This document shows, in pieces, positions 43,774 through 55,418 of a DNA stretch of 64,000 nucleotides. The stretch is taken from NCBI RefSeq assembly GCF_009914755.1, contig NC_060926.1; one strand, 5' to 3'. The stretch is from the human T2T-CHM13v2.0 reference genome, Homo sapiens. Position 1 is the first letter of the stretch, and each line of letters opens with the position of its first letter. Made by a program: the position numbers and the translations under genes. The notes under the pieces are model-generated. The model ran no database searches. It was not told the DNA's origin and saw only the letters and a list, made by a program, of their open reading frames with translations.

Positions 43774-44680
43774 CTTTGTGGTTTTATCTACTTTTGGTCT
43801 TTGATGATGGTGATGTACAGATGGGTTTTTGGTGTGGATGTCCTTTCTGTTTGTTAGTTTTCCTTCTAACAGACAGGACCCTCAGCTGCAGGTCTGTTGG
43901 AATACCCTGCCGTGTGAGGTGTCAGTGTGCCCCTGCTGGGGGGTGCCTCCCAGTTAGGCTGCTCGGGGGTCAGGGGTCAGGGACCCACTTGAGGAGGCAG
44001 TCTGCCCATTCTCAGATCTCCAGCTGCGTGCTGGGAGAACCACTGCTCTCTTCAAGGCTGTCAGACAGGGACATTTAAGTCTGCAGAGGTTACTGCTGTC
44101 TTTTTGTTTGTCTGTGCCCTGCCCCCAGAGGTGGAGCCTACAGAGGCAGGCAGGCCTCCTTGAGCTGTGGTGGGCTCCACCCAGTTTGAGCTTCCCGGCT
44201 GCTTTGTTTACCTAATCAAGCCTGGGCAATGGCGGGCGCCCCTCCCCCAGCCTCGCTGCCGCCTTGCAGTTTGATCTCAGACTGCTGTCCTAGCAATCAG
44301 CGAGATTCCGTGGGCATAGGACCCTCCGAGCCAGGTGTGGGATATAGTCTTGTGGTGCGCCGTTTTTTAAGCCGGTCTGAAAAGCGCAATATTCAGGTGG
44401 GAGTGACCCGATTTTCCAGGTGCGTCCGTCACCCCTTTCTTTGACTCGGAAAGGGAACTCCCTGACCCCTTGCGCTTCCCAGGTGAGGCAATGCCTCGCC
44501 CTGCTTCGGCTCACGCACGGTGCGCACACCCACTGGCCTGCGCCCACTGTCTGGCACTCCCTAGTGAGATGAACCCGGTACCTCAGATGGAAATGCAGAA
44601 ATCACCCGTCTTCTGCGTCGCTCACGCTGGGAGCTGTAGACCGGAGCTGTTCCTATTCGGCCATCTTGGCTCCTCCCACC
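43774..44680. promoter_or_regulatory. L1 5'UTR bidirectional promoter (sense promoter fires -, antisense promoter fires + into the host gene); YY1 site intact at 44659-44668
   Basis: CpG-rich full-length 5'UTR with CAAGATGGCC on the minus strand. Activity is inferred from L1 biology. Confidence 0.7.
44229..44444 (+). CDS. L1 ORF0 (71 aa, antisense 5'UTR ORF), intact
   Basis: MAGAPPPASLPPCSLISDCC...RCVRHPFL with strong Kozak context gcaATGG. Splice donors after nt 106 (44334) and nt 191 (44419). Expression is not shown. Confidence 0.8.
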   Translation: MAGAPPPASLPPCSLISDCCPSNQRDSVGIGPSEPGVGYSLVVRRFLSRSEKRNIQVGVTRFSRCVRHPFL

Positions 44681-45234
44681 TTCAATATTTAAATCTCTGA
44701 TTCAATTAAAATTTGATCCTGGTCTGCAGTATGAGGAGTGGATTTAATTTCATCTTTTTCCATATAGTTTCCCAATTATCTCAATACCACATGTAATTTT
44801 TTTTGTTTTTCTACTGATTTGAGTTGCCTTTATCAACAAATATCTATAGTTGTGAATTATTTATTTAAATATTTAGATAAATTATTAAATATTGAACCTC
44901 TCTTGATTTTTTGGATTAAACATTCCCTTGGCCATTATGTAATTTTAAAATACGTTATTTAGTTCTGTTTGCTGACACTATATTTAAAATTTTGTGATTG
45001 ATATTCATGAGTGATTCTATAATTTTGGTTTTCTTTCTTTATGATGTTTGTCAGGTTAAGGATCAGCTTTGCATTTACTTTACATAACAAATGTGGAAGA
45101 TGGGAAGATATCTTTCTTCTTCTGTTCTTTGGAGAAATAGAAGTACCAGTGAGATGATTTGTTCTTTAAAAGGTTCATTTGAGAAACCATTTACTCTCAC
45201 AATATTACAATCTTACTATATTATCTCAGGGAGT

Positions 45235-45345
45235 TTTTTTGTTTTTGTTTTTGTTTTTGGAGATGGAGTATTACTTACTCAGTGACCCAGGCTGGAATGC
45301 AATGGCAAAAATGTGGCTTATTGCAGCCTCAAACTCATGGGTTGG
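45235..45345 (-). mobile_element. Degenerate Alu (J/FAM-like) fragment
   Basis: (TTTTTG)n tail plus gagatggagt...cccaggctggaatgcaatggc. Confidence 0.65.
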
Positions 45346-45873
45346 GGGGAGCTCCTTAAATACTTTTCCTATTTTTTATAGGAACAGGTCGATTTAAATT
45401 TTGTGTCAGATTGAGGTTAATGTTGGTAAGTTTAAGACGCTGAATAACTTGAGATTTAGAACCATGTCTTTTTTTTTTGCATGTAATTTTCTCAGAGCTT
45501 ACCTTAGATTAGTGAAAAACAAGTGCATTCTCAATAAACGTGTGTGGAGTATTTGTTCCATAATGTGTTAGGCAAGCAATGTAGGCCGAATAATTTAGTA
45601 AACAAAAGTGTATGCTTGTACTTCCTGAAACAGTTGGTGAATTGCACATGTGTGTTTAACTTTGTTTCCTTACACTCCTCATGAAGAATAGTAAATGGTT
45701 TTTTTTTTTATTTTTATTTTTTAATGGCTCTGTAAGCCAGCAGCAAATCAGAGGAACTCTTTGTCGTTTACCATCTCCAAAACAGCAACTTCAGTGATGG
45801 GGTGCTCATAGGAGACTGAAAATTCACCTGGCTAGAAATTAGGCTAGAAATGAGGGAAGCTGAAGGAGAAGGT

Positions 45874-45963
45874 AGCCCATCTGGAGTAACGCACTAGTAA
45901 CATGTATCAGTAGATGAGCCCATCTGGCTGCCACACACTAGTAACATGTATCAGTAGATGAGC
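45874..45963. repeat. 43/44-bp tandem duplication with a divergent middle
   Basis: agcccatctgg-[agtaacg|ctgccaca]-cactagtaacatgtatcagtagatg, twice. Confidence 0.9.
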
Positions 45964-46240
45964 AATGATGTGTGTAATCTACAGTAGCACATCCTGCCCT
46001 TCATTGACCTTACACACATGGAATCAATGTCTGTGCTATGCTCTTGCACCTGCCGCATCTCATGTAAAATGTCTGTTGTGGGATATGCTGACCAGAGCTA
46101 TGCAAGGAAAGGAATTCTGGTAAATGTAGTTCCAGTTTGGCTTAAATTGACACAACTTGAATCCACCACAATGGCATGACAAAAGGAGACAAATACAGGG
46201 GCACACACACAAAAACCCCCAAAATACAACAACAATACTC

Positions 46241-52421: not shown

Positions 52422-54161
52422 AAAACTCATAAAAAAAGGAGAGGCAACAAGTCATGAAACAACACTACTACTATTAATAATATAGGTTCATATTAATCAA
52501 GCACTTTCTATGTGCCATATGTGGATTGTGTCTTTGAATCCTTACTACAACAGTATGAGGGAGGCTCTTTTTGAGTTACTGTAGTCTAATGAGACAATTT
52601 ATACTTCGAGAGTTGATTAGCTACCTATTGTAATGAAGGATTCTAAAACAACACCTGGAAACAACAGACATTATCATCTCAGAGTGTCTCTGGGACCGTA
52701 AGCAACTTAGCTAGGTGGTTCTGTCTTGGTCTCTCATGCAGCTGCAAAAAAGATGTCCACAGGGCTGTTTTCGTTTTAAGGCTTGATATGGGGATCTTGC
52801 TTTGGTGCCCATTCTCAGGGCATGCTACCAAAACTTCCAGGCTCACTCCTGTGGGCCTCTTGCAAGGGCTGCCTTGTTACATTGGAGTTGGCTTCTACCA
52901 CCGTGAGTGACCTAGAACACCCAAGATGGAAGTCACTGTTGTTTTATAATCTAATCTTGGAAATGGTATCTACCACACTATCATATTCTATTTGTTAGAG
53001 CAAGCCAGTAAGTCCAGCCCACTTGGAGGGAGGATGTGATTTTGTCAGCAGAACATGAATCCCAGGAAGTATCTGTCCATCACGGGAATTACCTTAGAGG
53101 TTGCCTAGCACAGGTGGGGTAGCTTGTCCACGCTTCCACAGGGAGAAAGGGGTAGCCCTGCCAGGAAAAACCACCCATTCTGATTCCAAGGTTTATGTTC
53201 TTAACTACTATGCAACTGCTCACATGCTGTGGGGTGGTGTTTCCCTTTTGTGGGACAACAGCAACTCCTTCCACATAGCTGTCATCCCGGGAATGTGGGA
53301 GTGGTTGGGAGGTCAACATAGACAACAGCTGATTTTCACCTTTGTGACAAACACCCAACGGCATTATCAGGTTTAGGCAAACAAAAATAATCTGTACATT
53401 ATGCTCACAATGTGGGGCACAGATTGTGGCACTCCCACATACCTCCTGCTGCGGAAAGTTTGCTGGAATGCAAGAGAGAATGCCATGAGAACAAGGATAA
53501 CCTTGAGTTCACTCTAATTTATAAAAAGTCAAACCCTCTCAGGCTTCATAACTTTCCTGGTAATAAATTATTTGAGCCACCCCTCACATTTGATCATGAC
53601 AAACTGCAGCTTCCTCTTCCTGGGATGGGACATTAGTCACAAGGGGCAGGAGTTGGCTAGGAGAGGAGTTGGTACTATATCTTGAAAGCTGTTGGGAGCC
53701 ACTGAAATGTTTAAAGCATCATAGGGTGACATGATTGGAGATGTAGCTGCTGCTCTGAGCAACAGCATTTTGTCTGAAGCATCAGACAACATTCTATATT
53801 CTCATATATGAGACAGTAGATGTCTCCTTTATACCCCCAACAGATTTATTCATGTTAGCCTAATAAAATTTATATATTTCCCAAACTTGCAGATTTATCA
53901 AAGCTCCCTATCTCAGGACACCTGAACCTGCCTCTATCTGAGCATGCAGACTTTTGTGGCTGCCAATCAAGCTGTGAGCTTTCTGGGGTAGAGATTTATT
54001 GCCTCCTCCATGGTTCCATCCTCTGGTGGCAACCTCATCTGTTGACACGTATTAGGAACTCAGTAAATGCTTATTAAGTCAAAATAAACTGAACTTCGTT
54101 GTGCACTTACTACATGTTATGTACTATACTTAGTACTAGGTACATAAAAATAAGACAGTCT

Positions 54162-54462
54162 GGGCCAGGCGCAGTGGTTCACACATGTAATCCCAGCACT
54201 TTGGGAGGCTGAGGTGGGTGGATCACGAGGTCAGGAGTTCGAGACCAGCCTGATCAATATGGTGAAACCCCGTCTCTACTAAAAATATAAAAATTAGCTG
54301 GGCGTGGTGGCATGTGCCTGTAATCTCAGCTACTCAGGAGTCCGAGGCAGGAGAATCTCTTGAACCCGGGAGGCGAGTTTGTAGTGAGCCAAGATCAAGC
54401 CACGGCACTCCAGCCTGGGCAACAGAGCAGACTCTACCTCAAGAAAAAAAAAAAAAGAAAAA
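54162..54462 (+). mobile_element. AluS (Sg-like)
   Basis: Full dimer with A tail. Confidence 0.9.
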
Positions 54463-54804
54463 GTCTTTAATTAGTAAAAAGCCATACTGTATGTAAGCAG
54501 TAATTTTTTTAATTCATGAGTCAAACATTGGCTCAGGCCCTGCTGTGATTGTTGCACTCTGCTAGATGCTGGGGCACAACATCAAATGACACGTGACCAC
54601 TACTCTTACAGGTTCTGTAACCCATTGAAAGAGACACAATGGTATTTGGATGATCCAAGCTCAGTATACAGTGGGAGCAAGGAGGAAGGTCATAGAGATA
54701 AGCAAAGAGGAGGGCCATGTAAGAGGTGAGGGGCCACATTTTGAGAGGCATTACCTCTGCACTGATTTTAAAAGAATGAATGAATTTAAATAAATGGAAA
54801 ATAA

Positions 54805-55085
54805 GGCTGGGCCTGGCGGATCATGCCTATAATCCCAGCAGCTTGAGAGACTGAGGCAGGAGAATCAGTTGAGGCTAGGAGTTCAAGACCAACCTGGATA
54901 ACAGAGTGAGACCCCATCTCTATAAACATTTTTTTTAAAAAATTAGTCAGGGTGGTGGCTCACACCTATACTCCCAGCTACTCGGGAGACTGAAGTGGGA
55001 GATCACTTGAGCCTGGGAGTTTGAGGCTGCAATGTGCCGTGAGCCGTGATCGTGCTACTGCAGTCTAAAACAAATAATAATAAAA
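54805..55085 (+). mobile_element. AluJ with 3' deletion
   Basis: Degenerate dimer about 200 bp upstream of the exon. Confidence 0.8.
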
Positions 55086-55298
55086 AGAGAGAGAGAGAGA
55101 GATGAATGGAAAATCTGAATGTCAAACATCAGTATCAAGCCACTGGTACTGGTGTGTTAAGGCTTGGGGAAAAAGTCAAGGATATAGAAGGAGGGAAATG
55201 AATACACATAGAGCAAATCTAAGTAGGAGTTACTGATTCCTGCAAAGGGATATGCAGAGCCAAGCAAAGTTTTATCTCTGCTGCCTTTGTCTTTCCAG

Positions 55299-55418
55299 CC
55301 ATCTACGAGCAATCCTGCGAGGTGTACAGGCACCAGGGGAATACAGCCGGCTTCTTCTACATCGACTCAGATGGCAGCGGCCCACTGGGACCTCTCCAGG
55401 TGTACTGCAATATCACTG
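55299..55418 (+). CDS. CNTNAP5: CNTNAP5 internal coding exon (120 bp, probably exon 12); start of fibrinogen C-terminal-like domain (S)[39 protein letters not shown](E)
   Basis: ctttgtctttccAG acceptor and GTAAGG donor at 55419. Caspr-family motif YIDxDGSGPLxP. Phase 1 at both ends. Confidence 0.93.

What the first reader, a model, noticed from the sequence alone, without database searches (positions are those of the whole stretch)
44229..55418. Intact L1 ORF0 positioned to splice in frame into CNTNAP5: predicted ORF0-CNTNAP5 fusion protein
Seen: the L1 is antisense to the host gene, so its ORF0 (44229-44444, gcaATGG) lies on the host sense strand. Donor CAG|GTGTGG falls after nt 106 (44334), which is phase 1, and the next host acceptor (55299) is also phase 1. 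Splicing over 10,964 bp gives MAGAPPPASLPPCSLISDCCPSNQRDSVGIGPSEP-A(G+CC)[13 protein letters not shown]... in frame. The second donor (after 44419) is phase 2 and out of frame. Known: the L1 antisense promoter drives chimeric transcripts, and ORF0 donors can fuse to downstream host exons. Inference: an ape-specific, signal-peptide-less C-terminal CNTNAP5 isoform could be made where L1 is derepressed (pluripotent cells, germline, neurons, tumours). ORF0 is intact while ORF1 and ORF2 carry multiple lesions, though its small size alone could explain that.
Basis: partly seen in the sequence, partly recalled or inferred. Interest (0 to 1): 0.8.

Follow-up and report, generated by a model that had tools for sequence, protein, structure and literature searches.

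The report
Ordinary intronic L1 with in-frame ORF0
A dead, roughly 8-million-year-old L1 element sits backwards in a CNTNAP5 intron, and its small antisense gene (ORF0) could in principle splice in frame to the next exon, but this layout is common in the genome and nobody has reported the fusion.

Summary
The arithmetic of the finding is correct. ORF0 (44229-44444, 71 aa, gcaATGG) is intact. The donor CAG|GTGTGG after 44334 is phase 1, exon 55299-55418 is entered in phase 1, and the join reads through in frame.

Nothing about it is unusual:
- The element (38624-44680, minus strand, 11-bp target-site duplication) is an L1PA2-like copy with broken ORF1 and ORF2.
- Its ORF0, start context and three CAG|GT donors are identical in 20 of 20 fetched relatives. 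All 150 scored ORF0 matches in the genome are also open.
- Simulated neutral decay leaves a 216-nt frame intact 77-88% of the time.
- A phase match is roughly a 1-in-3 coincidence. About 1,900 young L1s lie in this orientation inside genes, a figure derived from Pinson 2022.

The in-frame donor is the weakest of four donor-like sites by a crude score, and the best one lies after the ORF0 stop. CNTNAP5 is absent from two published lists of L1 antisense transcripts, and no held paper pairs CNTNAP5 with ORF0.

Verdict: a real and correctly read configuration, a predicted but unobserved member of a known class, and of low interest.

The parts
38624..44680 (-). Full-length (6,057 nt) L1PA2-like LINE-1, no longer able to retrotranspose. 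It has an A-rich tail at its low-coordinate end. The 5'UTR is 907 nt (ORF1 ATG at 43773).
   Evidence: Bounded by the target-site duplication. Aligns end to end at 97.5-98.2% identity (top aligned piece) with most of the 20 fetched relatives; two align in more than one piece. ORF1 and ORF2 are broken. The 3'UTR trinucleotide is GAG and the element's own branch is about 1.3%.
38613..38623 (.). Target-site duplication, copy beyond the A-rich tail (TTCAATATTTA on the + strand)
   Evidence: Longest shared word between the two flanks, 11 nt
44681..44691 (.). Target-site duplication, copy next to the L1 5' end
44229..44444 (+). L1 ORF0, 71 codons plus stop, at L1 positions 452-237 on the antisense strand. 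It is the first ATG on the + strand from 43900 onward.
   Evidence: No Pfam family matches it. It differs from the commonest relative sequence (12 of 20) at residues 21, 30 and 56.
44332..44340 (+). Donor-like site CAG|GTGTGG (exon ends at 44334, L1 position 347), phase 1. This is the only one in frame with exon 55299.
   Evidence: Identical in 20 of 20 relatives. Crude score 4.2, the lowest of the four.
44394..44402 (+). Extra donor-like site CAG|GTGGGA (exon would end at 44396), phase 0. It was created in this copy by a CpG-type change.
   Evidence: 19 of 20 relatives have CGG here.
44417..44425 (+). Donor-like site CAG|GTGCGT (exon ends at 44419, L1 position 262), phase 2, out of frame
   Evidence: identical in 20 of 20 relatives
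44480..44488 (+). Donor-like site CAG|GTGAGG (exon would end at 44482, L1 position 199), 38 nt after the ORF0 stop. It has the best consensus match of the four.
   Evidence: crude score 7.2. Identical in 20 of 20 relatives.
44081..44228 (+). Stretch where antisense-promoter transcripts would have to start in order to include the ORF0 ATG (L1 positions 453-600). Inferred from the literature, not shown for this copy.
   Evidence: Criscione 2016 passages: antisense ESTs of L1HS and L1PA2-8 lie within the first 600 bp of the element. This copy is 98-99% identical to 40 other copies over 44081-44680.
8744..8850 (+). CNTNAP5 coding exon (EGF-like domain). It ends in phase 1.
   Evidence: Hub annotation. 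Frame. Pfam EGF PF00008, E 4.5e-07.
55299..55418 (+). Next CNTNAP5 coding exon, entered in phase 1, behind a pyrimidine-rich acceptor
   Evidence: Hub annotation. Crude acceptor score 6.4; 6 of 765 upstream AG sites score as high or higher.

Best explanation
This is an ordinary fixed L1PA2-type LINE-1. It inserted antisense into the CNTNAP5 intron between the EGF-like exon (8744-8850) and the next exon (55299-55418), and has since lost ORF1 and ORF2.

Its antisense 5'UTR still carries the family-standard ORF0, Kozak context and donor sites simply because 216 nt rarely break in about 8 million years. The phase-1 ORF0 donor matching the phase-1 downstream acceptor is a one-in-three coincidence, shared by probably hundreds of intragenic L1s.

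If the antisense promoter fires here, the likeliest products are unspliced read-through RNAs that end in the intron. Spliced RNAs using the other three donor-like sites would be out of frame or would leave ORF0 as an upstream ORF. The in-frame ORF0-CNTNAP5 mRNA is possible but at most rare.

Its protein would lack a signal peptide, so the normally extracellular, disulfide-rich domains would be made in the cytosol. The protein is therefore unlikely to be a working isoform.

Shown: the anatomy, the phases, the ordinariness of the ORF0 module, and the absence from the published lists searched. Inferred: promoter behaviour, splice choice and protein fate.
For: Anatomy and frame:
- 11-bp target-site duplication and four CAG|GT sites.

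The ORF0 module is the family norm:
- In 20 of 20 fetched relatives, ORF0 is intact with the same ATG context and the same donors at L1 positions 347, 262 and 199.
- All 150 scored matches, out of 8,620 first-look candidates, are full-length and free of stops.

Neutral survival:
- Simulated substitutions at 1-2% leave ORF0 intact in 88-77% of trials. The same hazard leaves an ORF2-length frame intact in only 10-1%.

Age:
- Mean mismatch to relatives is 1.97%, against 1.30% among the relatives themselves. The element's own branch is therefore about 1.3%.

Competition:
- The in-frame donor scores lowest of the four (4.2, against 7.2, 5.2 and 4.2).
- 6 of 765 intronic AG sites score at least as high as the native acceptor.
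- There are 13 AATAAA and 14 ATTAAA signals on the + strand before the exon.

Literature base rates:
- 57 of about 3,200 genic ORF0 loci were observed fused (PMC4908685 passages).
- 44 of 1,509 chimeric transcripts (2.9%) in brain and glioma were spliced at the 5' end (PMC9396940 passages).
- There are 8,744 recent L1s with a 5'UTR; 31.5% are intragenic and 68% of those lie opposite to the host gene. By my arithmetic that is about 1,870 loci with this layout.

CNTNAP5 is not found in:
- 10 supplementary files of PMC4908685.
- 3 supplementary files of PMC9396940.
- The main text of PMC6639357 or PMC7746726.
- Any of the 25 L1 papers listed (0 occurrences each).
- Any held paper that also contains ORF0.

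Signal peptide:
- There is no hydrophobic core in the 35 ORF0 residues (maximum Kyte-Doolittle mean 1.5 over 7 residues).
Against: - Nothing here measures transcription. Absence from lists is weak evidence: EST collections are shallow for a brain-restricted gene, stored supplementary text can be cut, and the Denli 2015 list of 57 fusions could not be seen.
- Pinson 2022 reports that antisense-promoter activity follows host-gene transcription and is enriched in synaptic genes, with the L1 opposite to the gene in 92% of intragenic producers. That is exactly this layout, in a neuronal gene.
- The native acceptor at 55299 is strong. The ORF0 ATG is the first AUG in any transcript starting at 43900 or later.
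- The in-frame fusion would run to the native stop, so it would escape nonsense-mediated decay.
- My splice scores use recalled approximate frequencies and are only a ranking aid.
Confidence: 0.8

Rival explanations
1. In cells where young L1s are derepressed, or where CNTNAP5 is transcribed, the antisense promoter of this L1 starts an mRNA that splices from 44334 to 55299. That mRNA is translated into an ORF0(1-35)-CNTNAP5 C-terminal fusion, a lineage-restricted isoform without a signal peptide.
For: - Frame compatibility is exact.
- The donor belongs to the ORF0 module that the literature says makes fusion proteins.
- The Kozak context is strong and there is no upstream ATG from 43900.
- The L1 is young, and its promoter region is 98-99% identical to other copies.
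- The layout and the host-gene class fit the L1s that produce chimeric transcripts in brain.
Against: - No report was found.
- Fusion and 5' splicing base rates are about 2-3%.
- Three competing donor-like sites, one of them clearly better, give no fusion.
- There are competing acceptor-like sites and 27 poly(A) hexamers in the 11-kb gap.
- The product would put extracellular domains in the cytosol. This is an inference from the recalled Caspr-family architecture; the EGF hit is consistent with it.
Confidence: 0.07
2. The L1 antisense promoter does act as an alternative CNTNAP5 promoter, but through the donors after 44482, 44419 or 44396. The resulting transcripts either have ORF0 as a complete upstream ORF or are frame-shifted. 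They would be non-coding or decay-prone RNAs, not a fusion protein.
For: - The site after 44482 matches the donor consensus best (7.2, against 4.2 for the in-frame site).
- The site after 44419 scores 5.2.
- The sites after 44482 and 44419 are invariant in 20 of 20 relatives.
- Exon 55299-55418 has no Met in the native frame from which translation could restart.
Against: The same lack of any observed transcript applies. The scores are crude. Pinson 2022 speaks of two donor sites in the antisense 5'UTR without giving positions in the passages I saw, so usage of the post-stop site is not documented here.
Confidence: 0.08
3. The L1 donors serve the host pre-mRNA instead. An upstream cryptic acceptor within the antisense L1 would pair with one of them to make an L1-derived cassette exon in CNTNAP5.
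For: Antisense L1 sequence is known to offer splice sites (statement in the PMC4859970 figure legend).
Against: No AG with even a modest pyrimidine tract (crude score 3 or more) lies 40-400 nt upstream of any of the four donors (0 candidates). The hub annotation shows no such exon in the listed transcript.
Confidence: 0.02

Closest known systems
L1 ORF0 and ORF0-exon fusion proteins (Denli et al. 2015, Cell 163:583). The paper was not held; it is known here only through passages in PMC4908685, PMC4859970 and PMC6639357.
   Same: - Same position on the antisense 5'UTR (L1 positions 452-237).
- 71 codons with a strong start context.
- Two donors inside the ORF.
- The L1 is antisense to a gene with a downstream exon.
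   Different: Those 57 fusions were observed in RNA. This one is only predicted. CNTNAP5 could not be checked against that list.
L1 antisense-promoter chimeric transcripts. Examples are L1-MET, L1-BCAS3 (PMC10879037), and the L1-fusion neuronal genes in DNMT1-knockout neural progenitors (CDH8, GABRR1, MET, SYT1, TUSC3, TBCK, PLCB1; PMC6639357).
   Same: A young primate L1 (L1HS-L1PA3 class), intronic and opposite to the host gene, with its antisense promoter facing a downstream exon. The host is a neuronal or synaptic gene.
   Different: No fusion reads, annotated TSS or chromatin evidence exist for this locus. Jonsson 2019 counted only L1s that overlap an annotated GENCODE TSS. Neither of the two exons the hub lists for the selected RefSeq transcript lies in the L1.
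Unspliced L1 chimeric transcripts of brain and glioma (Pinson et al. 2022, PMC9396940)
   Same: Same class of element and same orientation. This is the likeliest output if the promoter fires at all.
   Different: CNTNAP5 does not occur in the three supplementary files held for that paper.

Membership tests
L1 ORF0 locus (Denli 2015 definition, as relayed by held papers) | Open frame of about 70-71 codons on the antisense strand of a primate L1 5'UTR | tested here: met
   44229-44444 holds 71 codons, at L1 positions 452-237 counted from the element's 5' end at 44680. 150 of 150 scored genome matches cover residues 1-71 at 96% identity or more.
L1 ORF0 locus (Denli 2015 definition, as relayed by held papers) | Strong translation start context | tested here: met
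   GCAATGG, with A at -3 and G at +4. Identical in 20 of 20 relatives.
L1 ORF0 locus (Denli 2015 definition, as relayed by held papers) | Two splice donor sites inside the ORF | tested here: met
   CAG|GT after 44334 and after 44419, both invariant in 20 of 20 relatives. That these are the two published sites is inferred, because no positions were seen in print.
L1 ORF0 locus (Denli 2015 definition, as relayed by held papers) | Transcribed from the antisense promoter and translated | not testable with these tools
ORF0-gene fusion / L1 antisense-promoter chimeric mRNA | L1 lies opposite to the host gene, with an exon downstream of the antisense promoter | tested here: met
   The L1 is on the minus strand. 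CNTNAP5 is on the plus strand, and its next exon is 10,964 nt downstream (hub table).
ORF0-gene fusion / L1 antisense-promoter chimeric mRNA | Donor phase equals acceptor phase, so that a fusion protein results | tested here: met
   Phase 1 on both sides for the donor after 44334. The other three donor-like sites do not qualify.
ORF0-gene fusion / L1 antisense-promoter chimeric mRNA | An observed spliced L1-exon junction in RNA | tested here: not met
   This was checked only through the literature.
- CNTNAP5 is absent from 10 supplementary files of PMC4908685 and 3 of PMC9396940.
- 0 held papers contain both CNTNAP5 and ORF0.
- The 2 papers holding CNTNAP5, LINE-1 and 'fusion transcript' together are unrelated by title and abstract.
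L1PA2 subfamily | A 5'UTR as long as that of L1HS, without the extra 129-bp segment of older L1PA3 and earlier families. This rule is recalled from Jacobs et al. 2014. | tested here: met
   The ORF1 ATG is at 43773, so the 5'UTR is 907 nt. The element aligns without large gaps to relatives (7-18 gap columns).
L1PA2 subfamily | 3'UTR diagnostic trinucleotide GAG rather than the ACA or ACG of L1HS Ta and pre-Ta. This rule is recalled. | tested here: met
   GAG in this copy. The relatives have 10 ACA, 7 GAG, 1 ACG, 1 GCG and 1 AGG.
L1PA2 subfamily | Divergence consistent with an age of about 7-8 million years. The calibration of 0.17% per million years is recalled from Khan et al. 2006. | tested here: inconclusive
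   The element's own branch is about 1.3%, which gives roughly 8 million years. The relatives were chosen by 5'UTR similarity and include younger copies. No RepeatMasker or Dfam call was available, so a young L1PA3 is not excluded.

The most novel reading that the evidence does not exclude
The junction from 44334 to 55299 is really used in human pluripotent or neuronal cells. It would give a hominine-restricted CNTNAP5 isoform led by 35 ORF0 residues and lacking a signal peptide. This isoform would keep the transmembrane and cytoplasmic tail and could compete for the intracellular partners of Caspr-family proteins.
Probability: 0.04. Interest if true: 0.5.

Novelty: new member of a known kind. 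Interest (0 to 1): 0.2.

Why it matters
If the fusion were expressed, it would be one more case of a young L1 rewiring a neuronal, autism-linked gene in a lineage-restricted way, and a possible tumour-specific junction peptide.

As it stands, the value of the check is negative. Frame compatibility between ORF0 and a downstream exon is expected by chance at hundreds of loci. It should not be scored as a discovery without RNA evidence.

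Tried and rejected
- **Selection on ORF0:** rejected. The contrast between intact ORF0 and broken ORF1/ORF2 fits neutral decay, and the module is intact in every relative examined.
- **Cassette-exon use of the L1 donors by the host pre-mRNA:** 0 candidates.
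- **Pfam on ORF0 and on the exon 55299-55418 peptide:** no family for either. Only the upstream exon hit EGF. Calling the downstream exon the start of a fibrinogen-like domain therefore rests on recall.
- **Papers not held:** Denli 2015, Speek 2001 and Matlik 2006. The published donor positions and the list of 57 fusions were not seen.
- **Supplements:** I asked for no further supplements, so locus tables in Garza 2023, Lanciano 2024, Adami 2025 and Jonsson 2019 may bear on the claim and were not seen.
- **Earlier findings of this scan:** not open.
- **Broad literature search:** at least 2 of 6 terms had to match. None of its 30 listed papers held CNTNAP5, so it gave nothing specific.
- **Orthologous presence in other apes:** could not be tested, because no primate genomes were available.
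- **Splice-site scoring:** a proper scorer such as MaxEntScan or SpliceAI was not available. The position weights are recalled approximations.

Full report
**Observation**

- On the + strand an ATG at 44229 in the context GCAATGG opens a 71-codon frame that ends with TGA at 44442-44444.
- CAG|GTGTGG follows base 44334, which is nucleotide 106 of the frame, so it is phase 1. CAG|GTGCGT follows 44419, nucleotide 191, phase 2.
- The two annotated CNTNAP5 exons in the window (8744-8850 and 55299-55418) are open together in only one frame. In that frame the first ends with one base of a codon and the second supplies the other two, so the acceptor at 55299 is phase 1.
- Joining 44229-44334 to 55299 gives an open frame: 35 ORF0 residues, an alanine codon across the junction, then the native CNTNAP5 frame. 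The phase-2 donor gives a shifted reading.
- The implied intron, 44335-55298, is 10,964 nt.
- No other ATG lies on the + strand between 43900 and 44460. ORF0's ATG would therefore be the first in any transcript that starts in the usual antisense-promoter region.

**What the element is**

The repeat is bounded by an 11-nt target-site duplication (TTCAATATTTA at 38613-38623 and 44681-44691). The element is therefore 38624-44680 on the minus strand, with a degenerate A-rich tail at its low-coordinate end.

It aligns end to end with most of the 20 full-length relatives fetched from the same genome. Identity of the top aligned piece is 97.5-98.2%, and two relatives align in more than one piece.

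Its coding capacity is gone. Against open frames of relatives, ORF1 shows one frame change and one stop in the matched stretch. ORF2 shows two frame changes and two stops (ORF pieces).

Three features point to L1PA2, or at most a young L1PA3, about 8 million years old. The classification rules and the rate used are recalled, not computed.
- The 5'UTR is 907 nt (ORF1 ATG at 43773).
- The 3'UTR trinucleotide is GAG.
- The element's own branch is about 1.3%. Mean mismatch to the relatives is 1.97%, against 1.30% among the relatives.

It was not tested, because no primate genomes were available.

**Is the ORF0 module special in this copy?**

No.
- A search of the whole assembly with the ORF0 peptide gave 8,620 first-look candidates. 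All 150 that were scored cover residues 1-71 without a stop at 96% identity or more.
- In 20 of 20 fetched relatives, ORF0 is intact. The ATG context and the donors at L1 positions 347, 262 and 199 are letter-for-letter the same.
- This copy differs from the commonest ORF0 protein (12 of 20 relatives) at three residues: 21, 30 and 56. It has 30 CpGs in its first 600 nt, against 31-36 in the relatives. That is mild neutral decay.
- A simulation of random substitutions at 1-2% leaves the 216-nt frame intact in 88-77% of trials. The same per-base hazard leaves an ORF2-length frame intact in only 10-1%.

**Is the in-frame layout special?**

Again no. Pinson et al. 2022 (PMC9396940, passages) count 8,744 recent L1s with a 5'UTR. 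Of these, 31.5% are intragenic, and 68% of the intragenic ones lie opposite to the host gene. By my arithmetic that is about 1,870 loci with this very layout.

About a third of introns are phase 1 (recalled). A few hundred such loci should therefore be frame-compatible by chance.

**Will the junction be used?**

Four CAG|GT sites lie on the antisense 5'UTR, not two.
- After 44334: phase 1, crude score 4.2.
- After 44396: phase 0, score 4.2. This one is a CpG-decay novelty of this copy, seen in only 1 of 20 relatives.
- After 44419: phase 2, score 5.2.
- After 44482: 38 nt past the ORF0 stop, score 7.2.

Only the first gives a fusion. The others give shifted frames, or an mRNA with ORF0 as an upstream ORF.

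In the 11 kb before the exon, 6 of 765 AG sites score at least as well as the native acceptor by a crude pyrimidine-tract score. There are also 13 AATAAA and 14 ATTAAA hexamers. These scores use recalled weights and only rank the sites.

The literature base rates are low.
- 57 of about 3,200 genic ORF0 loci were seen fused to an exon (Criscione 2016, PMC4908685, passages citing Denli 2015).
[quoted passage not shown] The rest run on unspliced into the flank.

**Evidence for this locus**

None was found.
- CNTNAP5 does not occur in the 10 supplementary files of Criscione 2016, which cover 988 antisense-promoter transcripts. CNTNAP2 and CNTN1 do occur there, with old L1 families.
- It does not occur in the 3 supplementary files held for Pinson 2022.
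- It does not occur in the main text of Jonsson 2019 or Honda 2020.
- It has 0 occurrences in each of the 25 L1 papers listed.
- No held paper contains both CNTNAP5 and ORF0.
- One paper holds CNTNAP5, 'antisense promoter' and LINE-1 together, and two hold CNTNAP5, LINE-1 and 'fusion transcript'. All three are unrelated by title and abstract.

Limits of this negative evidence:
- Denli 2015 itself, Speek 2001 and Matlik 2006 are not held.
- Supplementary files closed. Locus tables of Garza 2023, Lanciano 2024, Adami 2025 and Jonsson 2019 may bear on this and were not seen.
- No RNA data could be queried.

Pinson's finding does count in favour of some antisense-promoter activity here. In that study, producers of chimeric transcripts are enriched in synaptic genes and lie opposite to the host gene in 92% of intragenic cases. 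Yet the gene is not in the supplementary files held for that paper.

**The protein, if made**

- The 35 ORF0 residues have no hydrophobic core. The maximum Kyte-Doolittle mean is 1.5 over 7 residues.
- The upstream exon is an EGF-like domain (Pfam PF00008, E 4.5e-07).
- By the recalled Caspr-family architecture, the fusion would begin at the fibrinogen-like domain and keep the later laminin-G and EGF domains, the membrane span and the short cytoplasmic tail.
- Without a signal peptide, these disulfide-rich extracellular domains would be synthesised in the cytosol. A stable working isoform is therefore unlikely. This is inference.

**Rival readings**

- For a cassette exon, no acceptor-like site lies 40-400 nt upstream of any of the four donors (0 candidates).
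- The other two rivals can only be separated with RNA data.

**Verdict**

The configuration is ordinary and expected by chance, and nothing shows that the junction is used.

I put about 4-7% on a detectable in-frame fusion mRNA, and less on a functional protein. Interest is low.

Noticed in passing
window 44394-44402 (+): A CpG-type change (CGG in 19 of 20 relatives, CAG here) has created an extra donor-like CAG|GTGGGA inside ORF0, in phase 0. The same change gives the residue-56 difference in ORF0p.
   Followed up: partly
window 44480-44488 (+): The best donor-like site of the antisense 5'UTR (CAG|GTGAGG, L1 position 199) lies 38 nt after the ORF0 stop and is invariant in 20 of 20 relatives. 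Transcripts spliced there would carry ORF0 as a complete upstream ORF rather than a fusion.
   Followed up: partly
window 38613-38623 and 44681-44691: An 11-nt target-site duplication, TTCAATATTTA, sets the element's exact ends at 38624-44680. NCBI's masked block starts 19 nt earlier, at 38605.
   Followed up: yes
window 38624-38665 (-): The A-rich tail has decayed into AAT/AAAT-type short repeats rather than a pure poly(A).
   Followed up: no
window 43821-44078 (+) and 44491-44700 (+): Two further ATG-started open frames of 85 and 69 codons lie on the antisense strand of the L1 5' region, flanking ORF0. They are probably chance frames in GC-rich sequence and were not examined further.
   Followed up: no
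loci L001-L020: The 20 copies most similar to this element's 5'UTR are a mix by the 3'UTR trinucleotide: 10 ACA, 7 GAG, 1 ACG, 1 GCG, 1 AGG. 8 of 20 have an ORF2-length open frame and 11 of 20 an ORF1-length one. The 5'UTR alone therefore does not separate L1HS from L1PA2 copies. No copy is singled out here.
   Followed up: partly
window 45382, 49075, 51490 (+): These intronic AG sites have long pyrimidine tracts and outscore the native acceptor at 55299 in a crude scan. They are possible decoy acceptors for any transcript starting in the L1.
   Followed up: no
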